NCBI GenBank assembly: GCA_965153355.1
Contig: OZ231126.1
Span: 12,338,001-12,402,000, forward strand
Source of the DNA: Flaccisagitta enflata
Taxonomy: Eukaryota
Direction of reading: 5' to 3'
DNA: 64,000 nt
Every line of letters starts with the position of its first letter. Within the stretch, counting starts at the first letter, position 1. Shown here piece after piece: positions 6,849 through 64,000 of the stretch. The notes below the pieces were generated by a model. It was not told the DNA's origin. It did not search any database and worked only from the letters and a program-made list of their open reading frames with translations. Position numbers and translations under genes: made by a program.

Positions 6849-7057
6849 AGCAAGGCCAAGACCCTCACGTGCGAGACTTACATTTAGAATGACTTAGAAT
6901 AACTTAGTATGACTGATTATATTCTTAAATAGCCTAAAATGAATTAAGATTGATAAAAAAAGTGTAATGGACAGACTGATTGACTGACAGACTGACAGAC
7001 AGATGTACGGATGGACAGACAAAGCAAGGTGTAGAGTCGCGTGCACGCGACTAAAAA
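6849..7057 (-). mobile_element. HINE-like element
   Basis: caaggccaa...gtagagtcgcgtgcacgcgactaaaaa. Confidence 0.7.
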
Positions 7058-7166
7058 TGGAAAACCATGTTTCTCTGGAATAAGTCAAAAAGTCGAAGAG
7101 AACTTTTTTTCCCATTACGCTATTGAGTGTTGCCATGTTTTTGGTACTCTTTTTTGTCACGGACAG

Positions 7167-10100
7167 ATGCAAGCTCTTATAATTTCAACAAAGAGGAATT
7201 TGGTTTCAATTCATCCATTGCGTTGCCCTCTTCAATGTCGTATCGCAATGACGCAAGCAACAATGATATTATTGATGACAAGAAGGATCAACTTCTTCAA
7301 AAAGAATGCCGCTTGTATTGTGGATTTGAACGTAGTTCACAGTACTACGACATTATATTGCATGACATTTATTGCCAACCATTACCGGATATAGAAGTTT
7401 GCAATTTGATGACACGGAAATCTCTGCGCGATTCCATTCGTACCCAGTTCCATATGTTACCATCATATGATTTTAGTCTTCTTTTGTGGGCGCCTAACCA
7501 TACAAGTTTTCCGCGATTAGAAGATGGATTCATGACGGACTTAGTTACAGCTGATAAAAGAGTTACTATTGTAGAGGTTCATATGGCAATGGAGAGACAT
7601 AATTCATCTTTCACAACCCAAATCGGTAATCACACTTTTGATGGTCAAAGAGATGGGCTTGAGCTTATTTATATTGATGGCATAGGTCTGGATTACATCG
7701 ATAGTGGCGCATTTTATGGAATCAGACAGCTGAAGAACTTTTATGCTGGTAACAATAGACTCACAGAATTAAGTTTCTCAATTTTTCAAGAAAACGAGGA
7801 ACTGGCGTTTTTAAACGTTTCTTACAACTTGATAACAAAATTAAATGTGCCTATTTGCCTAAAAAGTCTCTTAGAGCTTAGTCTGAAAAACAATCGATTG
7901 ACCTCGATAGAACTAAAAAAGCTTCCACAACTCCAATACCTTGATCTAAGAAATAATCAATTGACCTCAGCAAAACTTCAACAACTTCCAAATCTCGAAA
8001 GGCTTTATCTAGGCAATAATCAATTGACCTCAATAGAACTTCAACAATTTCCAAATCTCATGTTCCTTGGTCTACGCAAAAATCGATTGACCTCAGTAAA
8101 ACTTCAACAACTTCCAAAACTGGAATTTCTTTATCTATCCAATGGTCAATTGAATTCAACAGAAAGTACACTATGCGTGAATTGTCCCAAGCTCTCATTT
8201 TTGGACGTGTCAAATAATCTCATCAGTGAGATTTCCGAGGATGCGTTTACCAGCTTGTTCAATTTGCGAGTGTTAGATTTAAGCTTTAATAAAATCAAGT
8301 CCTTGGAGTTTACGACAAGGTTAAATCGTCTGGAACTTCTTACTTTGAAAAATAATCTACTTGAAAAAGATTGCAATATTTCATTAAACACCCAACCATT
8401 TCAAAGAACCAAAATATCAAAGCTTGTTTTGAGCTATAATAAGATACAAACAGTCCGTATCATTGATCAGAGCCATGAAATTAACCCGCAACCCGTAATC
8501 CATGAATTACATGTTGATAACAACCAAATTACATTAATTGAAACTACTCCTGGTATTACTGTTTTGAACATCACTTCCAATAACATGAGCTGGGTTGATT
8601 CTTCTGAGATGGTCAGGATGAACGAGATTCTATCTTTGTCAATATCGAACAATCCATGGGAGTGTTCTTGCGAGGATGAATACAAAAACTTAACAAAGTT
8701 TTTATTGCGCCATGGGCAGATACCCTGTGCTCCATCAAAGTGTCAATCTTCAACCAATGGTATCTCAACTGTAACCATTGGCTGCAATGATCAAGATTTG
8801 AACTCACTCCCCAAGTGTCTACCCTATGCAGAGGTAACGCTTAATTACGCTGGTTGTGGATTGAAACATTTGAGTTTCTCAAAACATCAAGAAAACATTG
8901 TCTCACTCAACCTTCGAGGAAATCAAATAATCAGTATAAATGGGTCTACTTTTCATTTTCTAAAAAAGTTGAACAGACTTGATTTAAGGAACAACAGCAT
9001 TAAAAGATTACCAATGGAGATAAAGCATCTGAATGACACTGTCATCTATTTAGCGGGTAACCCATTGGCCTGTGGTGACTGCAAAATGATACATTTGCTT
9101 TGGAATATTACAGGAACAACATACACTTGTGCAGACGGAAGTCATTTCAATTTTTTCAGAATTTATTTGTTGTGCCACCTTGATAAAATATTATCTGCTC
9201 TAACCAGTATCTTAATGCTTGCAATTCTTTTACATTGTACTTCCAAAATGAATAAAAGAAGAAAGTTGGGAAAACAATACAGCAAAAAGTACTTTCCTAA
9301 GCTTCATCTTGCTAAAGAAATGACTGTCTTTCAAAAAGAAAAAGAAATTCGCAAGCTCATCAACCATGAGCGAATAAGAGAATTAGGGGGTGTGTTCATC
9401 AGTAGAACAATCACATGTAGTACTACTGGCATTTTCCATCTGGAAAAAGTTGAGTGCAGCCTTCATGAATATTCAAAACACTCTTTCCCAGTTCATTATG
9501 ACTATTCAGAGCTTGCCAGGGATCTCCTTCAAGCAGTTGACTATCTACATGTAGAAAAAGGCATTGTCCATGGAAATATTGGACCCAAATCTACATTTCT
9601 TCAATTGGACAGCACAAATCGCCATTGGCGTCTAAAACTGGGAGACTTCAGCCAAGCTCATCATTCTGTTACCGATCCATCCATTGGGGATCCTTTGTTA
9701 TTAGTTTCAGGATTTGCCGACATTGAGGGCGGATGTAGTTGTTTGAAAGAAGATTTAAGATCAGCTGCAAGAGTCATTTTTTGTTTGATAAGTGGTAAGG
9801 AGAATGAAAATGGATTGACCCACAAAAACATTGAAAAAGTTTCAGATGTAGACTTTGCCATTATTTTGCTGTCTTTGTGTGCCGGTCTGTCAGCTGATAG
9901 GGCTCTTCAGCTACCACCATACTGCAAAATTGTTAGAAATCTTTCTTTTTTGACAATGCTGGACAAGAGCAGAATACAGAACATCACAGATCATGCAAAC
10001 TATGTTGAAGGAAAATCTTTATGGAGCACATCTGCTCCAATGATTATGAAAGAATTTGAAATTCTATCAAGTTGTTTGGAGGTAACAGCTCTCCCTTATA

Positions 10101-11263
10101 TCCTCCATATGGCTTACGATCTGTGTGACATCCCCTTGAATGAAATCAAGCTAATGAAACGGTTATTAGAGGAGGTCTGCTTGAAAAAACAAATCATTCA
10201 ACAGGGGCAATTAATTCCAGAGTCGTTCAAGCTTGTCACTGACAGGAATGGCAACTGGAAAACAAATTTCAAACCTACAGCAGTATCGCACCAAAAAGAT
10301 GAGGTGGATACATGTTGTTCAAAAGCCGCTGCATCCCTCATTGACTTTCTCATGAACTGGAAGATGAGGGAGGAAAAACTTCAAGTCCACGATTTCTTAG
10401 ATGATGTCCATGATTCATTCAAGCTTGAAACTTGTATTTTGATACTGTCACTGCAGGAGGGATTGTCACCACAAGAGGCCTTGTTCACCCCTCTTTTCCA
10501 ACATGAACTAACCCAGAAATCAATTCTAGAAGAATTGAACGCATTCTTGAAGCAGATCAAGTGCGAAAAGAGTAAGCAAAAAAATGACTATAGGGCGAGC
10601 ATTTTACTTGAAGATGTCGAAATAAATTCACCACTTGTCATTGGTGGGGAGGGCGCATGGAATGTCAAACTGGTACCAGAACTTCTCGAGGAATTTGCTT
10701 CAAACAAGGGATACAGATTCAACATCACCTCTTTTGCAGATCTACTCCGTATCATTCGAAACATGTTCCAACATGGACATGAGAATCCCATCGCGATGCA
10801 GGCAGCTTTTGGCACCACAAATCCTTCTCCCACACAAATGATGACAGAATTTTTTGGTCAATTTTCATTTCTCTACCTTCATTCTCTCAGTTGCTTTTCC
10901 AAGCTGTTTCCACCAAGGCCTGATTCTGTGCCGAAATTGTACATTGACACCTATGATAGATTTGAAAGCGTCATTTGCGCCCAAGGCATGCAGAATGGCA
11001 CCATCAAACCACTTAGGAAAGATGGCTTCATCACATTGTCTTTTGAGTCAGCAACAGACGTCAGTTTCATGGAAGTTATCACTTTGGAAGGCAACACGCG
11101 ATCTTGTGTTGATTTTATTGTTGATGTTGCACCTCGTCTTGCTCAGAAATCACAAGAACATTGGCAAGACATTCCATCAACATCTCTCGTAGTCAGATGT
11201 TTTGACAAGATCGTGGATGTTTCAAAAGCAGAAGCCTTGAGCTTGCCGTCGACTAGCAAAAAG
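7167..11263 (+). CDS. Main exon 2: Toll-like LRR ectodomain, TM helix, IRE1/RNase L-like pseudokinase, degenerate duplicate module, KEN ribonuclease domain
   Basis: Lies in the 1381-codon open frame 7127-11272. Many LxxLxLxxN repeats; NPWECSC at 8651; NPLACGDC at 9059; TM ILSALTSILMLAILLHC 9188-9238 followed by KMNKRRK; YLHVEKGIVHGN (9569) and LKLGDFS (9644); DLLRIIRNMFQH 10739-10774. Acceptor tctttttgtcacggacag|7167; donor AAG|GTGTGG at 11264. Confidence 0.93.
7870..8160 (+). repeat. Coding tandem repeat, 63-bp period (about five 21-aa LRRs)
   Basis: aatc(g/a)attgacctc recurs at 7892, 7955, 8018, 8081, with a diverged copy at 8144. Confidence 0.9.
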
Positions 11264-11370
11264 GTGTGGTAGCCTTGTTTTGAAAAAAAACTTCATGGTG
11301 CTTCAAGTCAAGTCGAACCTGAATAATCAACGTAACTCTGCCTCTGCAGTAGATAAGTAAATGTTTTCAG

Positions 11371-11623
11371 TTTTTAGTCGCCTGCACGCGACTCTACATC
11401 GCACTCTGTCCGTCTGTCGGATGGTCCATCGGTCAGTCCATCGGTCGGTCTGCAACGCTTAGCTTTTTTTGGTCATTTTACCCTATTCTAAGTCATTTTG
11501 AATTATTTAAAGTCAATTTAAGTCAATTTACATTTAGTCTCTTAGTCTTTTGGTCTTATAGTCTTTTAGTTTTGGTCTAATGTTCTTAACAACCGCACGC
11601 GACTGTAGGCTGTTGGCCTTGTT
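11371..11623 (+). mobile_element. HINE-like element in predicted intron 2
   Basis: tttttagtcgcctgcacgcgactcta ... gcacgcgact...ggccttgtt. Confidence 0.7.
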
Positions 11624-12282: not shown

Positions 12283-12477
12283 GTAGAGCACTTAGTGAGT
12301 CATTAGCAGTCCAATGTCAACGGGCAGTTCGCCCTCGCCTAAAATTACCGTAAACATCACCAATGTGCCGACGGTTGACTATTGTTTCGATAGATTGTGT
12401 CAGTTTCACTACTTGTACCAACGTTCAAATTGTCTGTGTCAATATTGATTTAAATGGTTTTAATCATTCCTCAACAG

Positions 12478-12620
12478 GCTCCACTATTCGTATCCTGAAA
12501 CCGGAGCTTTGGATGGAATTCCTTTCCTTTGATTCTCTAGCTGGTGAAACGGTTGCCCATAAGTTCAAACCGGGAGACAACGTCTTGTCCGTCAAAGGCT
12601 TTGCAGTGGATCGAATCAAG
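12478..12620 (+). CDS. Predicted exon 4 (start of ubiquitin-like domain)
   Basis: cattcctcaacag| phase-1 acceptor; encodes GSTIRILKPELWMEFLSFDSLAGETVAHKFKPGDNVLSVKGFAVDRIK; AAG|GTAATG phase-0 donor. Confidence 0.72.
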
Positions 12621-12916: not shown

Positions 12917-13135
12917 GCGCATTTCTCCGCTGACGCACAAATGGATCCCAACGAAATCGCTGTTCTGAGCGGCCATGAGGAATTGAAAGCAGCCCAGTTG
13001 CTCGTCGATTTCGTCTTTCCAAAGTATCACAAACTCACAATTCGATATCCAGACCGTCAAATAACTTTTCGAGAAAGACAACCGTCTTTGGAAATTGAAG
13101 AAGACAACTTTTTCGCGTTGTTTGACAATGAATGA
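12917..13135 (+). CDS. Predicted terminal exon 5 (rest of ubiquitin-like domain plus acidic tail)
   Basis: ttcacttttttcag| phase-0 acceptor; AHFSADAQMDPNEIAVLSGHEELKAAQLLVDFVFPKYHKLTIRYP...EEDNFFALFDNE then TGA. The five exons sum to 4641 nt = 1547 codons. Confidence 0.72.
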   Translation, partial: AHFSADAQMDPNEIAVLSGHEELKAAQLLVDFVFPKYHKLTIRYPDRQITFRERQPSLEIEEDNFFALFDNE

Positions 13136-22234: not shown

Positions 22235-22601
22235 TTCGTTACTTTGAAACACTTTTTTATATGATTAAATCTTGTGGGCCACCCAGGAAGTCAACCTTTG
22301 AAAACAGACAATTTTCACCAATAAAATCGACGCTTATTTCCTTTTTCTTTTATCTTATCTTTCTTTTTTTTCCCTTCCTTTGAATCTGTCTTTAACTCAT
22401 TTTTTTTCTCAACTCATTCCTAATTTTTCATTCATACATGCTATCTACTATATCTTAAGATATTCTATTCTGTATTGCATTGTCACGTTGTAGAGCACTT
22501 AATCATGCAACATGGCCGTAGTAACTAGTAAGGATTTGCTCATAGCACAATTTGATTTGCAATTGAAGTTTCTTGCTATGTGCCATGATGAAGTTTGTGG
22601 C

Positions 22602-22865
<264 letters not shown>

Positions 22866-23199
22866 TTTGATGTTGTAGTTACTGTGTATGCAGAAAAAGT
22901 TTTGTCGTTTCTTGCTGTTCAACATGTCTTTTCTCAAGAACAAATTTGTTCTTTTTTTCTTAGATGCCTTTTTATGGTTTTGATGGTGCCATTTCTTAAT
23001 GATTTTGAAGGTGTTATATCATGATTGGGAGCTATAAATCCTTTGAACCGATCATTTTTTTTGATCAACTTTTGTGTTTCATTTTTTTCCCTTTTTAGAA
23101 AAACAAGTCTTTTAACTTTAAGTACTCTTAGGCAATTATTTTTCTGAAAGAGGATTAAACGCCATCTAGCATCAATGACGACTTTTTAAATTGTATAAA

Positions 23200-27204: not shown

Positions 27205-27413
27205 GATTATTGTTGTCGTCGTCATTGACTTGTTCTCATACCTGGCAAAAAATAAGGACCTCGCAGTCAGGAAAAGCAGACATGATTGATACGTACAGGG
27301 AGCTAGGGTCAGAAAAGCAGGGTGGTCCAAAAAGTTCATGTTGTTATTTCCTTCTAATTTTCTTCATCATATCATGGATGGTGGCGGCACTGTCATTTCG
27401 TGCTTCGCCTACG

Positions 27414-27701
<288 letters not shown>

Positions 27702-27916
27702 GAGGGAGGAAGAGGGGGGACATTGACTGATGAGAAAAACTTTGACCGAAATAATTCTTACATGACATTCCTCGCTTGTTGCTTGTTTCTACAAAGGAAC
27801 GGTTTTGTTTTCTCTCATCTTTTTTATTCTTTTTTTTCTTTTTTAGTTTCGGCCGGAACTAACAAGAGGGCGTGTGGAACACAAGGAGAGAGTGGAAGGC
27901 TGCAAAAACATAGGCG

Positions 27917-28012
<96 letters not shown>

Positions 28013-28053
28013 TTGTTGTTGTTGCTGTTTTTGTTGCTCTTGTTGTTGTTGTT

Positions 28054-28085
<32 letters not shown>

Positions 28086-28101
28086 AGTTGTTGTTGTTGT
28101 T

Positions 28102-28170
<69 letters not shown>

Positions 28171-28311
28171 CTTGTTGGGCGCGACGCGGGGCCCCGAGGG
28201 TACAAAGTCTCAGGGCCCCGTGTCTCCATAATCTTCAGGGCCCAGAATTCGTTCCTATATTAATTATATTACTCTTTACTCCCTCTCTTTTAATCTTTGG
28301 ATTATTCTTCC

Positions 28312-28402
<91 letters not shown>

Positions 28403-29504
28403 CAACCGCATTACTGCCCGCTGTGTATCCAGCCTCATTTAACTTTGACATAGCAAACTGTTACTATTTACAAAAACTGAATAGTAGATTTGCTTCTTTC
28501 TCAAATCTTTGACTTTTACTAAGCGGATGAGCTGGAGTGAAGTAGTTGGGAAAAAAATCGAAAAACGAATTTTCGATTTTTTGAGTTTCGCTTAGGAATC
28601 AATTTTTTCCATTTTCGCTTGGAATGTTTTGGGGAAGTTGAGGAGCAACTAGGCTCGCAGGGCAGGGCACTGTCGGACCAATACTTTAGGCGCTATGAAT
28701 TTTTTAATCTTTTTTTATTTTTTCACATTTTCCGCATTTTTCTCAAAGATCTTTATTTTTCATCGATCTCAAATTTGAGCCTAAATAACTATAAAAATGA
28801 GTTCAGCAGAGGGCAGAGGAAGGGAGGGAGAGGGAGGGAGAGAGAGGGAAGGAGAGGGAGGGAAGGAGAGGGAGGGAGGAATAGGGAGGGTGGGAAAAGG
28901 AGTAAGGGAGGGTGGGAGAGGGAGGGAGAGGGGGACGGGGGAGGGAGGGAGAGGGAGGGAGGGAGGAAGAGGGAGAGTAGGAGGGAGAGGGGGAGGGGGA
29001 GGAAAAGGGAAGGAAAGAGAGAGGGGGAGGGAGGGACAGAGAGAGAGGGGGGGGGAGGGTTAGAGGGAGGGAAAAGAAGTAGTTGGATAGCTCATTCAGG
29101 CAAGTATTTTTAGTATTCCAAAGCCAGGACCAAAAATAGAAAAAAGTAAATAAATCAATTAAAAGAGTGAGGTTCATTATTTCAGATGAGCATGAGTTTA
29201 AATAAAGTAGTAAAAAAACGCTTCCATCCTTAAACTAAGTTTTTTTTTAATGATCTAGTGATCTCTTATCCACCTGCACGCAACTGGGGAGGGGGGAACC
29301 ACTCAAGTCCGAATCCAATTCCTAACATGAGGCCAGTAAGGTCTCTATCCACTCAAGTCAGAATCGGACTTGAGTGGTTTGGTAACTTAACTACCCATTC
29401 GGTCTTGAGTGGTTCTCCCAGTTACTCAGATCGGACTTGAGTGGGGTATATTCTTACTACCAGCTGGCTTATTGTGGCTAGTATTACTCTCTGTGAGGTC
29501 TGTG

Positions 29505-36159: not shown

Positions 36160-36407
36160 CACGTAGGCAATGGGCTGGGTTTTAAGGGAATATAAATCGT
36201 TGATAACAGTGGGCTACACTATTTTGTCAAATGGGCAATGCGCAGAGTCGTAGGCTGACGCTTACATGTTGAATATGTACATCGATGGTAAAAAGAGGTC
36301 ACTCTAGATACACTGGATCAGGATGGAAAAAGAATTTCTTCCCAACGCCATTTTTTGCGCCCTTCAGTGCCAGAGGGTCGAAGCATAAAACGTTTACGAG
36401 CAGGTCC

Positions 36408-37832
<1,425 letters not shown>

Positions 37833-38191
37833 GGAACCATATAAAATTGGTCTTCTCATTTCTCATATAAAGCGAATCATGTTTTCTCCTTGCAAAAGCT
37901 GACGTTAACAACTTCTGCATGGGGGGGGGGGGTGGGGGGGGTGGGTGGGAAGGGGTTAGTATGAGCGGGATGAGCCGGATCGGAAGGGAGACCAAAGGGG
38001 GATGGCTGGCGGTATTGAGCCCGCTAGGGTCAGGGCGCGGAAGTGGGGATAAGTCAAAGGGGACGGGAATCTGAGGGGGAAGTGGGAACGAAATGATGAC
38101 GAGATTGAACTCAGGACGTAATGAGGATGAAGTAATGAACTGAAATACAGATTGTCCATCAACTATTGAAAACAAGATGAAATCAAAACAT

Positions 38192-38411
38192 AACAAGGCC
38201 AACACCTGTAAGTCGCCTGCGAGACTTACAGATTGACTTAGAATGACTTAGAATGACTCAGTATACTCTTAAATAACTTTAAATGACTTAAAGAAATAAA
38301 ATTGAGAAAAAAAGTAAAAGTGTGACGGACCAACAGACCGACCGACCGACCAACCAACCGACGGACGGACGGACAAAGCGGAGTGTAGAGTCGCGTGCAC
38401 GCGACTAAAAA
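38192..38411 (-). mobile_element. HINE-like element with demonstrable empty site
   Basis: Paralog at 63062-63086 reads aaatcaaaacataaaaaaacggctc with no element; insertion in an A/T run without a clear TSD. Confidence 0.85.
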
Positions 38412-48908: not shown

Positions 48909-50374
48909 CTATTTTACTTTCTCTCACTTTCGAGTCTCTTATGTTTGTTCTTTTGTGTAAAGTCTGTCTGGCATCAATTTGGCTCCTCCCATTCTGCTCC
49001 TCTCTCCCACTGATTTGCTTCTCTTCCTCTTTTTAACCTCACCCCCTTTTTCACCCTCTCTCCCTCTGCTTTACACCTCTTCCTCTTTTTAACTAGGCAA
49101 CCTTTTAATCACGAAAATCATGAGTAAGTTGTAATCATTTCCACTGAAGCACGACGTTGTGCATCAGTGGAATGAAGAATAACTGATGCTCTTTGAAATT
49201 TGAGCTTCAGTGGAATTGGAAATAACTGAATTTGTCATATTAGCAAATACATTCAAAATAATCTTTATTTACTTTTATCTGAGGAAATCATCTTCTTTCT
49301 TTTTACCTCTACATAATTGTTAATTCCAGCAAAAACCTGCAAAATGTTTGTCATGTATTTTTCTAGGTTGACGTTTTTTCCTTAAAATGGGACATCTGTA
49401 ACGAACCGCCGCGTCAGACAGACTGCACTGATAGACGGACCGACTCAGCCTGCAACCAGCAGCGCAGCGTAAAGCCTAAAATTGCTTAATATGGCGCGTA
49501 GATGATGCTCAATGAATTGAAGGATACAAAAGTGATTGATTTTCATGCCGCTTCCACCGCCTCCGCTTTTGCTTCCGCTTCCATTTTACAAATACTGCTG
49601 GCTATCCACCTACTAATTTAGAAGCAGTCAACCGCACCCACACGCACATCTCTACTTGCCAGGGATTTACACTTTAGTTAAGGGTCAAAAAATGCTTAAA
49701 GAAATTTTGATTGTTGCACCACTTATTCTTAGATCATTGGAACACGGTTGCGATGCGATCAAAAATTGTTTTCTGCATAAAAATTACTTATCCAAAGGTT
49801 TTGAATTTCAGTAACCACTAAATCTAGGTCGTACCTAAAATTGGATATGTAAGTATATGAGTGGAAGCATATACTATACAGAAATGAGTAGCTTTTGAAT
49901 GTTTTATTTTACTTTTATATGTTAAGTCTATTTTTCAAAAACATTTTTCTAAAGTTTTTTGTTAAATACTTTTTGTTGCACATTTCATAAAATAACATTT
50001 AAAAAAAAGTTGTAACGCCATCCTTTTGCACTGTTTGACATTGTCCAGTAAGTCAATTTTAACAAGAAGAAATGAAGTTGATTTTGCTGCTTTTATTCTG
50101 TTCAACAAGAGTAGGCGTTTTTTTTAGTTGATATTCTAAGAGTTCATCAAGTTCTCCCAGAAGATCAAGTTGGTTCATTCAACAACAATTAGTTTGTTTG
50201 TCGCACCTTTAGAAATTCTATCATTATCCTTTTTTTGCCATTACTCAGTCTAATTGCGAGCCAAAACTTTGCTCTACTTGTTTTTATTTGCCTCTACCAC
50301 TCTCTCTGTTTCTCCTCCTCATGTTCTTTGTTTTCGCCTTCTTCTTTTTCTCTTCTTCTAATTTTCTTTGTCGT

Positions 50375-51180
50375 CTTCTTCTCCTTCTTCTTCTTCTTCT
50401 TCTTCTTCTTCTTCTTCTTCTTTTTCTTTTTCTTTTTCTTTTTCTTTTTCTTTTTCTTCTTCTTCTTCTTCTTCTTCTCCTTCTTCCTCCCCTTCTTCCC
50501 CTTCTTCCTTCTTATTCTTCTTCTTCTTCTTCTTCTTCTTCTTCTTCTTCTTCTTCTTCTTCTTCTTCTTCTTCTTCTTCTTTTTCTTCTTCTCCTTCTT
50601 CTTCTTCTTCTTCTTCTTCTTCTTCTTCTTCTTCTTCCCCTTTTTTCCCTTCTTCCTTCTTCTTCTTCTTCTTCTTCTTCTTCTTCTTCTTCTTCTTCTT
50701 CTTCTTCTTCTTCTTCTTCTTCTTCTTCTTTTTCTCTTCTTCTTCTTCTTCTTCTTCTTCTTCTTCTTCTTCTTCTTCTTCTTCTTCTTCTTCTTCTTCT
50801 TCTTCTTCTTCTTCTTCTTCTTCTTCTTCTTCTTCTTCTTCTTCTTCTTCTTCTTCTTCTTCTTCTTCTTCTTCTTCTTCTTCTTCTTCTTCTTCTTCTT
50901 CTTCTTCTTCTTCTTCTTCTTCTACTTCTCCTTTTTCTTCCCCTTATTCTTTCTTCTTCTTCTTCTTCTTTTTCTTCTTCTTCTTCTTCTTCTTCTTCTT
51001 CTTCTTCTTCTTCTTCTTCTTCTTCTTCTTCTTCTTCTTCTTCTTCTTCTTTTTCTTCTTCTTCTTCTTCTTCTTTTTCTTTTCTTTTTCTTTTTCTTCT
51101 TCTTCTTCTTCTTCTTCTTCTTCTTCTTCTTCTTCTTCTTCTTCTTCTTCTTCTTCTTCTTCTTCTTCTTCTTCTTCTCC
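50375..51180. repeat. 0.8-kb (CTT)n tract
   Basis: Directly visible. Confidence 0.95.
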
Positions 51181-51622
51181 CTCATCCTCATCCTCCTCTT
51201 CTATCTCCCCCTCCATCACGCCGCCGGAGCACTACAATGGCGCCAAGGGAAACATTTTTGCCGTTTTTCTCAGGTTCTGATCTTTTGCGGGAATTCTTTT
51301 TTTTTCTTCTTTTGGATCTGTTCTTTTTTTTTCTCTCTTTTTTCTCTCTTTTTTTTTCTTTTCTTTTCCTTTTGCGGCCACCAACTCAGAAGACAGAAAA
51401 ATCGATCTCATTTCACAAATATCAGCTGGTATCGTTTCTTGGGTATCTTATCTGAGCTCAGCTAATTTGATGAGAGTTCATCATACTTTGGCAATGATCA
51501 TTGATCAGTTTATCTGGCCTTAACTCGTAAATCAATGTGATTAATCATTCATGGAAGAAATAGACATGACAGAATTGTATGGCCAGTTCTGACTTGAACC
51601 AAGTCTAACTTTTTACATAAGA

Positions 51623-53019: not shown

Positions 53020-53915
<896 letters not shown>

Positions 53916-54174
53916 TGATGTTGGTGAAGGTCGTAATAGTTGTGGTGATAATGAGGGTGATGGCAAACATGCAAGAGTTAATGGCGTTGGTATCAGTAAC
54001 CATCGAAAGTAAAGGTGGTGGTGGAGCTAGAGGTGTGTTGAATGTTGAAAAAAGCATTCATGAATGTCTCCCTTCATTAGGTTTCTCTCGTTCTCAATCT
54101 TCAATACGCAAAAACATTTTGAGTTCTGCTAACTGGTGACATTTGATATTCTTTTTTTAGAGGATCTTCTTTTT

Positions 54175-59673: not shown

Positions 59674-64000
<4,327 letters not shown>

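What the first reader, a model, noticed from the sequence alone, without database searches (positions are those of the whole stretch)
10460..10910. KEN/HEPN catalytic motif intact despite a dead kinase
Seen: SFADLLRIIRNMFQHGHENP...FG...EFFGQFSFLYLH, preceded by EALFTPLF and IGGEGAW. Established: IRE1 has SVRDLLRAMRNKKHHY...YFTSRFPHLL and RNase L has DLLKFIRNLGEH; Arg, Asn and His of RNxxxH are catalytic, and all three align here. The upstream catalytic Tyr position is ambiguous (Phe in register, Tyr two residues earlier in GYRFN). Inference: probably an active endoribonuclease with altered specificity.
Basis: partly seen in the sequence, partly recalled or inferred. Interest (0 to 1): 0.8.

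Follow-up and report, generated by a model that had tools for sequence, protein, structure and literature searches.

The report
LRR receptor carrying IRE1-type RNase domain
The flagged stretch is a genuine IRE1-like ribonuclease (KEN) domain at the tail of a large membrane receptor with a leucine-rich-repeat outside and a dead kinase inside, so a receptor may turn an outside signal directly into RNA cutting, but this copy has lost one of its four catalytic residues.

Summary
A single 1381-codon ORF (7127-11272, +) encodes an LRR ectodomain, one transmembrane helix, a degenerate kinase (HGN for HRD, DFS for DFG), a KEN domain and a small beta-rich tail. The KEN domain passes Pfam's cut-off (37.9 bits against 23.3). 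A family profile finds only IRE1 among solved structures, and an AlphaFold model matches IRE1 kinase-RNase best. R1211, N1212 and H1216 align with yeast Ire1 R1056, N1057 and H1061 and are among the most conserved columns of a small family (60 hits in 1.84 billion representatives). The fourth catalytic position (Ire1 Y1043) is Phe1198 here. It is Tyr in 26 and His in 6 of 36 aligned domains, and Phe only in the window protein. Published Y1043F costs yeast Ire1 about tenfold in rate. So the RNase is probably competent but weakened. "Altered specificity" is untested. A dead kinase with a live KEN is not paradoxical, because RNase L is built that way. The LRR-TM-pseudokinase-KEN architecture recurs in two full-length relatives, and I found no paper describing it. 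Both ends of the gene model are unresolved, and dimerisation and activity remain untested.

The parts
7127..11272 (+). Single uninterrupted ORF of 1381 codons (P0001). It is the main coding exon of the gene. It has no in-frame ATG before codon 37 and no signal peptide in frame.
   Evidence: tblastn finds no second copy in the window
7694..9166 (+). Leucine-rich-repeat ectodomain (aa ~190-680). It has two LRR blocks, each closed by a Cys-rich cap (NPWECSC at 8651-8671). It holds 14 N-x-S/T sites, against 4 in the cytoplasmic part.
   Evidence: Pfam LRR_8 E 1.1e-34, LRR_4 1.4e-25; PDB hits are extracellular LRR proteins: ALS 5e-27, LGR5, LRIG1, TLR3/9
9188..9244 (+). Single transmembrane helix (aa 688-706, ILSALTSILMLAILLH...)
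   Evidence: highest Kyte-Doolittle 19-residue window of the protein (1.96)
9245..9922 (+). Degenerate protein-kinase fold (aa 707-932). HGN (9569-9577) replaces HRD and DFS (9644-9652) replaces DFG. There is no Gly-rich loop.
   Evidence: Pkinase E 1.8e-6, 28.0 bits, below the cut-off of 31.7; alignment to DAPK3; motif scan; model
9758..9922 (+). Kinase C-lobe end, copy 1 (aa 878-932, ...IILLSLCAGLSADRALQLPPY)
   Evidence: 34% identical over 59 aa to copy 2, E 4e-6
9923..10315 (+). Helical middle region (aa 933-1063). It sits where a KEN domain would follow copy 1 and may be a degenerate KEN duplicate without catalytic residues. It is absent from relative P0007.
   Evidence: pLDDT 50-70; hhalign to the KEN alignment is in register but weak, P 0.031, probability 1.6%
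10322..10498 (+). Kinase C-lobe end, copy 2 (aa 1066-1124, ...ILILSLQEGLSPQEALFTPLF), leading directly into the KEN domain
   Evidence: aligned to the IRE1 kinase end '...HPLFW/HPFFW'
10502..10996 (+). KEN (kinase-extension nuclease, HEPN superfamily) domain, aa ~1126-1290. The Pfam match covers aa 1149-1253 (nt 10571-10885).
   Evidence: pLDDT >90; Foldseek top hits are IRE1
10718..10720 (+). Phe1198 (ttc) at the position of the Ire1 catalytic Tyr (yeast Y1043). It is Tyr in 26 and His in 6 of 36 aligned domains.
10757..10762 (+). Arg1211-Asn1212 of the RNxxxH motif (yeast Ire1 R1056, N1057)
   Evidence: R in 38 of 39 and N in 37 of 39 occupied rows
10772..10774 (+). His1216 (cat), the key catalytic His (yeast Ire1 H1061)
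   Evidence: H in 38 of 39 occupied rows
11021..11236 (+). Conserved C-terminal domain (aa ~1299-1370) with strand-strand-helix-strand-strand order, possibly a ubiquitin-like beta-grasp
   Evidence: pLDDT ~90 in the large model and 78 alone; conserved in relatives; Foldseek found nothing significant, best E 0.66
12477..12619 (+). Exon-like piece 1.2 kb downstream (GSTIRILKPEL...KGFAV). It resembles the start of a second C-terminal module present in relatives P0007, P0015, P0023 and P0047. It ends at a gtaatg donor-like site.
   Evidence: tblastn E 1.3e-4 to 5e-3; sequence; no clean in-frame splice to the ORF end was found

Best explanation
The region is the nuclease end of a single-pass receptor-like protein. 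The domain order is LRR ectodomain, transmembrane helix, pseudokinase, IRE1-type KEN ribonuclease, then a small beta-rich tail. Shown: the domains, their order, the intact Arg-Asn-His of the HEPN active site, and Phe at the Tyr position. Inferred: like IRE1 and RNase L, the cytoplasmic pseudokinase-KEN part is inactive as a monomer. It would cut RNA, metal-independently, leaving 2',3'-cyclic phosphate ends, when two receptors are brought together back to back. Here the trigger would be ligand binding or clustering of the LRR ectodomain rather than unfolded protein or 2-5A. The kinase fold would act only as a dimerisation scaffold. Because Phe1198 replaces the proton-transfer partner of His1216, this copy is expected to be a weakened but not dead RNase. 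By analogy with yeast Ire1 Y1043F, the loss would be roughly tenfold.
For: The KEN domain is above the Pfam cut-off. A family profile without any IRE1-like row finds only IRE1 chains in the PDB, 16 of 16 hits at E<=1, best 1.1e-5. With the kinase part included, the best hit is 1.7e-35. The AlphaFold model has mean pLDDT 80.3 with the KEN part above 90, and Foldseek ranks IRE1 kinase-RNase structures first, 6xdf_A at 8.1e-8. R1211, N1212 and H1216 are kept in 38, 37 and 38 of 39 occupied rows, and are among the 16 most conserved columns of the 40-row KEN alignment. This argues for selection on catalysis across the family, although nearly all members have a dead kinase (HGN/HGK/HCK/HGD/HGH plus DFS). 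The Tyr position is Tyr or His, both able to transfer protons, in 32 of 36 rows. Y1043F in yeast Ire1 leaves k2 at 0.022 against 0.25 per s, whereas H1061N costs at least 3e5-fold (PMC3149027, passages). RNase L shows that a pseudokinase can drive KEN activation (PMC4730318, passages). The same LRR + kinase-like + KEN order is seen in P0007 (1457 aa) and P0029 (1393 aa), and P0001 and P0007 are collinear from the LRRs to the tail. Relatives come from short ENA contigs of 0.5-4.3 kb. I read these as transcript assemblies, but that is an inference. A 1381-codon open frame in DNA of about 37% G+C is not expected by chance.
Against: The window protein is the only one of 36 aligned domains with Phe at the Tyr position, so this copy may be relaxed or inactive. 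No in-frame ATG precedes codon 37, and no signal peptide is in frame, so the topology is inferred, not shown. The downstream exon-like piece cannot be joined to the ORF end through a good donor and acceptor in frame. The stretch aa 860-1060 is modelled at low confidence, so it is not clear which of the two C-lobe ends completes the kinase fold. Dimerisation, ligand, substrate and activity are all untested. Expression of this particular gene is not shown.
Confidence: 0.5

Rival explanations
1. This copy is a catalytically impaired member of an otherwise active family. It would work as a non-cutting partner, for example a regulatory or decoy subunit that pairs with active paralogues, or an RNA-binding signalling scaffold.
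For: Phe1198 is unique among 36 aligned domains. Y1043F lowers both the rate and the RNA binding of yeast Ire1. [quoted passage not shown] The family has several diverged paralogues.
Against: Arg, Asn and His are all kept, and the published Tyr-to-Phe loss is only about tenfold. Nothing else in the KEN domain looks degraded: the window protein carries the majority residue in every one of the 16 columns printed as at least 80% conserved. No partner is known.
Confidence: 0.25
2. The locus is a recently disabled gene (pseudogene or relic). The frame is still open, but the start is lost, the C-terminal exons are uncoupled and a catalytic residue is mutated.
For: A stop lies at 7124-7126, directly before the frame, and there is no ATG until codon 37. 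An ATG at 7135 followed by hydrophobic codons (MFLVLFFV) is in another frame. The downstream homologous piece at 12477-12619 has no in-frame splice to a good donor. Phe sits at the catalytic Tyr position.
Against: 4143 nt lack a stop while every other frame is broken. All conserved family columns are kept. An acceptor-like cag at 7164-7166 behind a T-rich tract allows an upstream signal-peptide exon. The relatives' own ends vary, and the ORF's own stop may be genuine.
Confidence: 0.15
3. The RNxxxH string and its flanking similarities are a chance resemblance in a non-KEN helical region.
For: phmmer of the region alone against PDB sequences found nothing at E<=10.
Against: The Pfam match is E 2.2e-9 and above the cut-off. 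The profile-to-IRE1 alignment runs over the whole domain. The fold match is to IRE1. There are 60 homologues sharing the motif block.
Confidence: 0.01

Closest known systems
IRE1 (yeast Ire1p, human IRE1alpha): ER transmembrane kinase/endoribonuclease
   Same: Single-pass membrane protein with the sensor on one side and a kinase fold plus KEN on the other. The whole KEN domain aligns, including RN...H, and so does the end of the kinase C-lobe. IRE1 is the best structural match. Two IRE1-like proteins (P0055, P0060) are the only canonical relatives among the 60 hits.
   Different: The sensor is an LRR ectodomain, not the IRE1 lumenal domain. The kinase lacks the catalytic Asp, the DFG Gly and the Gly-rich loop, so activation by trans-autophosphorylation is not expected. 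The catalytic Tyr is Phe. The C-lobe end is duplicated with a 130-aa insert. There is an extra C-terminal domain. Sequence identity to IRE1 in the Foldseek alignments is only 10-13%.
RNase L (2-5A-dependent ribonuclease)
   Same: A pseudokinase followed by an active KEN nuclease, activated by dimerisation through the pseudokinase and linked to innate immunity (PMC4730318, passages).
   Different: RNase L is soluble, with nine ankyrin repeats that bind 2-5A. Here there are no ankyrin repeats, but LRRs and a membrane helix. The family profile does not reach RNase L at E<=1, and the first RNase L structure ranks 43rd in Foldseek.
Toll-like receptors and other LRR single-pass receptors
   Same: An extracellular-type LRR ectodomain with Cys-rich caps, then one membrane helix. 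TLR3 and TLR9 ectodomains are among the PDB hits.
   Different: No TIR domain was found at E<=1. The effector is a pseudokinase-RNase. The best LRR hits are not TLRs: ALS, LGR5 and LRIG1 rank higher.
KEN domains in other fusions listed by the 2013 HEPN survey (PMC3710099, Table 1)
   Same: KEN is reported fused to kinase, ankyrin, CCCH, ubiquitin-like (UBI) and BRCT domains. Lineage-specific expansions are proposed to be defensive RNases (passages). A ubiquitin-like tail would have that precedent.
   Different: No LRR ectodomain or receptor-like KEN protein is named in the passages I read. The survey's full supplementary lists were not available: only a 4-kb text file is held.

Membership tests
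KEN domain (Pfam PF06479, Ribonuc_2-5A) | Match to the family model above the curated cut-off | tested here: met
   37.9 bits against a cut-off of 23.3, E 2.2e-9, aa 1149-1253; 41.0 bits on the isolated region
KEN domain (Pfam PF06479, Ribonuc_2-5A) | Lies directly C-terminal of a protein-kinase fold | tested here: met
   The kinase-end motif ...SPQEALFTPLF runs into the KEN domain and aligns to the IRE1 '...HPLFW'. The kinase-like region is recognised. Caveat: the C-lobe end occurs twice.
KEN domain (Pfam PF06479, Ribonuc_2-5A) | IRE1-like kinase-plus-KEN fold | tested here: met
   AlphaFold pLDDT above 90 over the KEN part. All but two of the Foldseek rows printed (ranks 1-50) are IRE1 kinase-RNase structures; the exceptions are RNase L at rank 43 and ULK2 at rank 48. 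TMt is 0.49-0.61.
HEPN superfamily / KEN active site | R-x4-6-H motif with a polar residue after the Arg (RNxxxH) | tested here: met
   R1211, N1212 and H1216 align to yeast Ire1 R1056, N1057 and H1061 (residue numbers from PMC3149027)
HEPN superfamily / KEN active site | Tyr partner of the catalytic His (yeast Ire1 Y1043) | tested here: not met
   Phe1198 in the window protein; Tyr in 26 and His in 6 of 36 aligned domains
HEPN superfamily / KEN active site | Back-to-back dimer that forms the active RNase | not testable with these tools
   No usable result was obtained here. It needs biophysics or a structure.
HEPN superfamily / KEN active site | Metal-independent RNA cleavage | not testable with these tools
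   Needs an enzyme assay.
IRE1 orthologue | IRE1-type lumenal sensor domain | tested here: not met
   The N-terminal 700 aa match only LRR families in Pfam, apart from one sub-cut-off DUF4362 line at E 0.083, and LRR proteins in the PDB.
IRE1 orthologue | Catalytically competent kinase (HRD Asp, DFG, Gly-rich loop) | tested here: not met
   HGN, DFS, no GxGxxG
RNase L | N-terminal ankyrin repeats that bind 2-5A | tested here: not met
   No ankyrin family at E<=1 in Pfam
RNase L | Pseudokinase preceding KEN | tested here: met
Toll-like receptor | Cytoplasmic TIR domain | tested here: not met
   No TIR match in Pfam at E<=1

The most novel reading that the evidence does not exclude
This family is a so far undescribed class of animal receptor that couples a TLR-like LRR ectodomain directly to an IRE1-type ribonuclease, so that ligand sensing at a membrane is answered by local RNA cleavage with no kinase or adaptor cascade. 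In the window's clade a tandem duplication has placed a degenerate, non-catalytic KEN-like module in front of the active one. The two could then form a HEPN pair within one chain, as the two HEPN domains of Cas13 do (Cas13 is recalled, not tested here). One competent His per pair would suffice, as in Ire1.
Probability: 0.2. Interest if true: 0.85.

Novelty: new variant of a known kind. Interest (0 to 1): 0.6.

Why it matters
IRE1 and RNase L are the two well-studied kinase-extension nucleases. Yeast Ire1 work calls RNase L the only known Ire1 homologue (PMC3149027, background passage). Each couples one sensor, unfolded protein or 2-5A, to RNA cleavage. A third sensor type on the same effector, an extracellular-type LRR domain, would show that the pseudokinase-KEN module is a portable output device. 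It would point to a receptor that answers an outside ligand by cutting RNA, which is of interest for invertebrate innate immunity. The family also gives natural variants at the debated Tyr position (Tyr, His, Gln, Phe) that could test the general acid/base model of KEN catalysis. For this particular copy the practical message is narrower: three of the four catalytic residues are intact and one is not.

Tried and rejected
(1) phmmer of the KEN region alone against PDB sequences gave 0 hits at E<=10. Profiles were needed.

(2) Complex prediction with two copies of aa 1054-1374 gave 'no answer', with the controls not run and my alignment not used. It is not evidence either way. met a full queue.

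(3) The ESM Atlas look-up of the KEN+tail region gave no usable hit.

The three word-index searches returned only unnamed 'ena' or 'lgn' records. The organism of the window was not determined.

(5) Foldseek of the isolated tail domain found nothing significant, best E 0.66. Ubiquitin-like domains recur at TM 0.4-0.5, so 'ubiquitin-like' stays a suggestion.

(6) The middle region as a degenerate KEN: hhalign is in register but weak, at P 0.031 and probability 1.6%. The supports are positional, plus a low-identity BLAST extension into the KEN start of P0007. It is kept only as the novel reading.

(7) Gene model. I enumerated 9 donors x 7 acceptors between the ORF end and the 12477 piece. Only 5 in-frame combinations exist, none pairing the good donor (AAG|GTGTGG, last exon base 11263) with the good acceptor (first exon base 12478). 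A third candidate exon at 12917-13132 has no similarity to relatives, E 2.6-3.9.

(8) Rfam on the whole window gave 0 matches. Of the 44 ORFs of at least 90 aa that passed a complexity filter, I sent 32 to Pfam, and none reached a curated cut-off.

(9) Literature. Searches found no paper describing a KEN domain on an LRR receptor. This covers only the open-access library searched.

Full report
**What is at the coordinates.** The window is eukaryotic-looking DNA, about 31-49% G+C and full of microsatellites. The finding lies in the only long open frame, 7127..11272 on the + strand, 1381 codons. EALFTPLF ends at 10498, IGGEGAW is 10640-10660, GYRFN 10709-10723, RIIRNMFQH 10748-10774 and FFGQFSFLYLH 10850-10882. 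The His codon cat is at 10772-10774.

**Is it a KEN domain?** Yes, on three independent levels.
- Pfam's Ribonuc_2-5A model matches aa 1149-1253 at E 2.2e-9, 37.9 bits against a curated cut-off of 23.3.
- A profile of the KEN+tail region, built from 26 family members and holding no IRE1-like row, finds only IRE1 chains among 177,635 distinct PDB sequences. All 16 hits at E<=1 are IRE1, best yeast 2rio at 1.1e-5 and human 3p23 at 8.4e-5. RNase L is not reached. With the kinase part and two IRE1-like rows included, the score rises to 1.7e-35.
- An AlphaFold model of aa 720-1381 has mean pLDDT 80.3, pTM 0.72, and the KEN part above 90. Foldseek ranks IRE1 kinase-RNase structures first (6xdf_A, E 8.1e-8). 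The first RNase L entry ranks 43rd.
- The single sequence alone finds nothing in the PDB, so the domain is very diverged.

**The catalytic residues.** In the HMM alignments the window's R1211, N1212 and H1216 fall on the RN...H of yeast and human IRE1, and F1198 falls on the Tyr 14 residues before the Asn. The passages I read of Korennykh et al. 2011 (PMC3149027) name these residues in yeast Ire1:
- H1061 and Y1043 form the general acid/base pair.
- R1056 and N1057 are the phosphate ligands.
- H1061N costs at least 3x10^5-fold.
- Y1043F lowers k2 from 0.25 to 0.022 per s and also weakens RNA binding.

So three of the four catalytic residues are intact and the fourth is the very substitution tested in that paper. 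The codon is ttc, one base from tac.

**Conservation in relatives.** An exhaustive HMMER scan of 1.84 billion representatives with aa 720-1381 found only 60 proteins at E<=1e-3, 13 of them at E<=1e-30. Word-index searches added five more. From the 66 proteins held, phmmer at E<=1e-3 with a minimum length of 60 gave 40 KEN segments. The column counts include the window row:

| Position | Count among occupied rows |
|---|---|
| R1211 | Arg in 38 of 39 |
| N1212 | Asn in 37 of 39 |
| H1216 | His in 38 of 39 |
| W1178 | Trp in 34 of 34 |
| F1198 | Tyr 26, His 6, Gln 1, Phe 1 of 36 (two others not printed) |

- One exception row is P0045, a fragment whose first residues do not fit the family.
- The single Phe is the window protein. 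All eight of its closest relatives (P0002-P0005, P0062-P0065) have Tyr there.
- The Tyr two residues upstream (Y1196) is also present in four of those relatives, in a GYGY string. It is therefore ancestral to the clade and not a compensating novelty.
- Selection on the active site is thus visible across the family. It holds although the kinase is dead in most members with the region visible: HGN/HGK/HCK/HGD/HGH with DFS. Only P0034 and P0058 keep HRD...DFG.

**The rest of the protein.**
- Ectodomain: aa ~190-680 are leucine-rich repeats (LRR_8 1.1e-34), with Cys-rich caps and 14 N-x-S/T sites. The nearest solved relatives are extracellular LRR proteins (ALS, LGR5, LRIG1, TLR3/9).
- Membrane helix: aa 688-706 is the most hydrophobic 19-residue window of the protein.
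- Kinase fold: it starts some 20 residues later, without a Gly-rich loop, and has HGN for HRD and DFS for DFG.
- Duplication: the end of the kinase C-lobe occurs twice, at aa 878-932 and 1066-1124 (34% identity over 59 residues, E 4e-6). The second copy leads into the KEN domain.
- Middle region: the 130 residues after the first copy occupy the place of a KEN domain and align to it in register. The support is weak (hhalign P 0.031), and Tyr, Asp and Ile would sit at the Arg, Asn and His positions. Relative P0007 lacks this insert and is otherwise collinear from the LRRs to the tail.
- Tail: after KEN comes a conserved ~70-residue domain with strand-strand-helix-strand-strand order. Its Foldseek matches are not significant, but many are ubiquitin-like.
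- The LRR + kinase-like + KEN order recurs in P0007 and P0029. P0003 begins within the last LRRs and continues through the membrane helix, kinase and KEN.

**Gene model caveats.**
- 5' end: a stop lies immediately before the frame, and the first in-frame ATG is codon 37. No signal peptide is in frame. An acceptor-like cag behind a T-rich tract at 7164-7166 suggests an upstream exon. An ATG at 7135 with hydrophobic codons is out of frame.
- 3' end: the stretch 12477-12619 resembles the start of a second C-terminal module that P0007, P0015, P0023 and P0047 carry (tblastn E 1.3e-4 to 5e-3). I found no good donor-acceptor pair that joins it in frame.
- Whether these are annotation problems, assembly errors or decay cannot be settled without transcripts.

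**How it most likely works.**
- Shown: the architecture and the residues.
- Inferred from IRE1 and RNase L: the pseudokinase-KEN part would be switched on by dimerisation. Here the LRR ectodomain would drive it. The kinase fold would serve only as a scaffold, as in RNase L (PMC4730318, passages).
- Expected for this copy: reduced but not abolished activity, because of Phe1198.
- I put this at 0.5. An impaired, regulatory copy gets 0.25, a recently disabled gene 0.15, and a chance motif about 0.01.
- 'Altered specificity' cannot be judged from the data.

**Comparison and novelty.**
- Not an IRE1 orthologue: no IRE1 lumenal domain and no live kinase.
- Not RNase L: no ankyrin repeats, membrane-bound, and the KEN profile prefers IRE1.
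- Not a TLR: no TIR domain.
- It is a member of the KEN/HEPN nuclease family by model score, position, fold and Rx4H motif, with the Tyr feature not met.
- The passages I read of the 2013 HEPN survey list KEN fusions to kinase, ankyrin, CCCH, ubiquitin-like and BRCT domains, and predict defensive roles for expanded KEN families. They name no LRR receptor form (PMC3710099). Its supplementary lists were not available.
- Seven full-text searches found no description of such a protein. Domain databases and subscription journals were not searchable.
- I therefore rate it a new variant of a known kind.

Noticed in passing
window 12477-12619 (+): An exon-like stretch 1.2 kb beyond the ORF's stop encodes GSTIRILKPEL...KGFAV. 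It resembles the second C-terminal module of relatives P0007, P0015, P0023 and P0047 and ends at a gtaatg donor-like site. It cannot be spliced in frame to the best donor at the ORF end.
   Followed up: partly
window 7120-7170 (+): The ORF has no usable start. A stop lies at 7124-7126 and the first in-frame ATG is at codon 37. An out-of-frame ATG at 7135 opens MFLVLFFV..., which looks like the start of a signal peptide, next to T-runs. An acceptor-like cag is at 7164-7166.
   Followed up: partly
window 9758-9922 and 10322-10498 (+): An internal duplication of the kinase C-lobe end (34% identity over 59 aa, E 4e-6). Relative P0002 carries this LSLQEGL-type motif four times, so module duplication is recurrent in this clade.
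   Followed up: partly
relatives P0007, P0009, P0015, P0042, P0046, P0066: A subfamily has His instead of Tyr at the Ire1 Y1043 position, and P0023 has Gln. These are natural variants of the proposed proton-transfer partner.
   Followed up: no
window 11021-11236 (+): A conserved C-terminal domain with beta-grasp-like order of elements follows the KEN domain. Some relatives have two such modules. Ubiquitin-like folds recur among the non-significant Foldseek matches.
   Followed up: partly
whole window, e.g. 22512-23024, 27210-28442, 36285-38205, 50235-51465, 53161-54057, 60002-61497: Very dense and long microsatellites (AG/CT, GT, trinucleotide runs) give spurious ORFs of up to 600 codons on both strands. 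Outside the receptor gene I sent 32 of the 44 complexity-filtered ORFs to Pfam, and none reached a curated cut-off. Rfam found nothing in the window.
   Followed up: partly
window 6940-7060 and 11327-11455: Short (CAGA/CTGA)n-like repeats followed by a shared 'gtgtagagtcgcgtgcacgcgactaaaaatgga'-type sequence lie just upstream of the ORF. Read on the other strand, the repeat part (giving QTDRWTDR...) seems to recur just downstream. This may be a dispersed repeat family flanking the gene.
   Followed up: no
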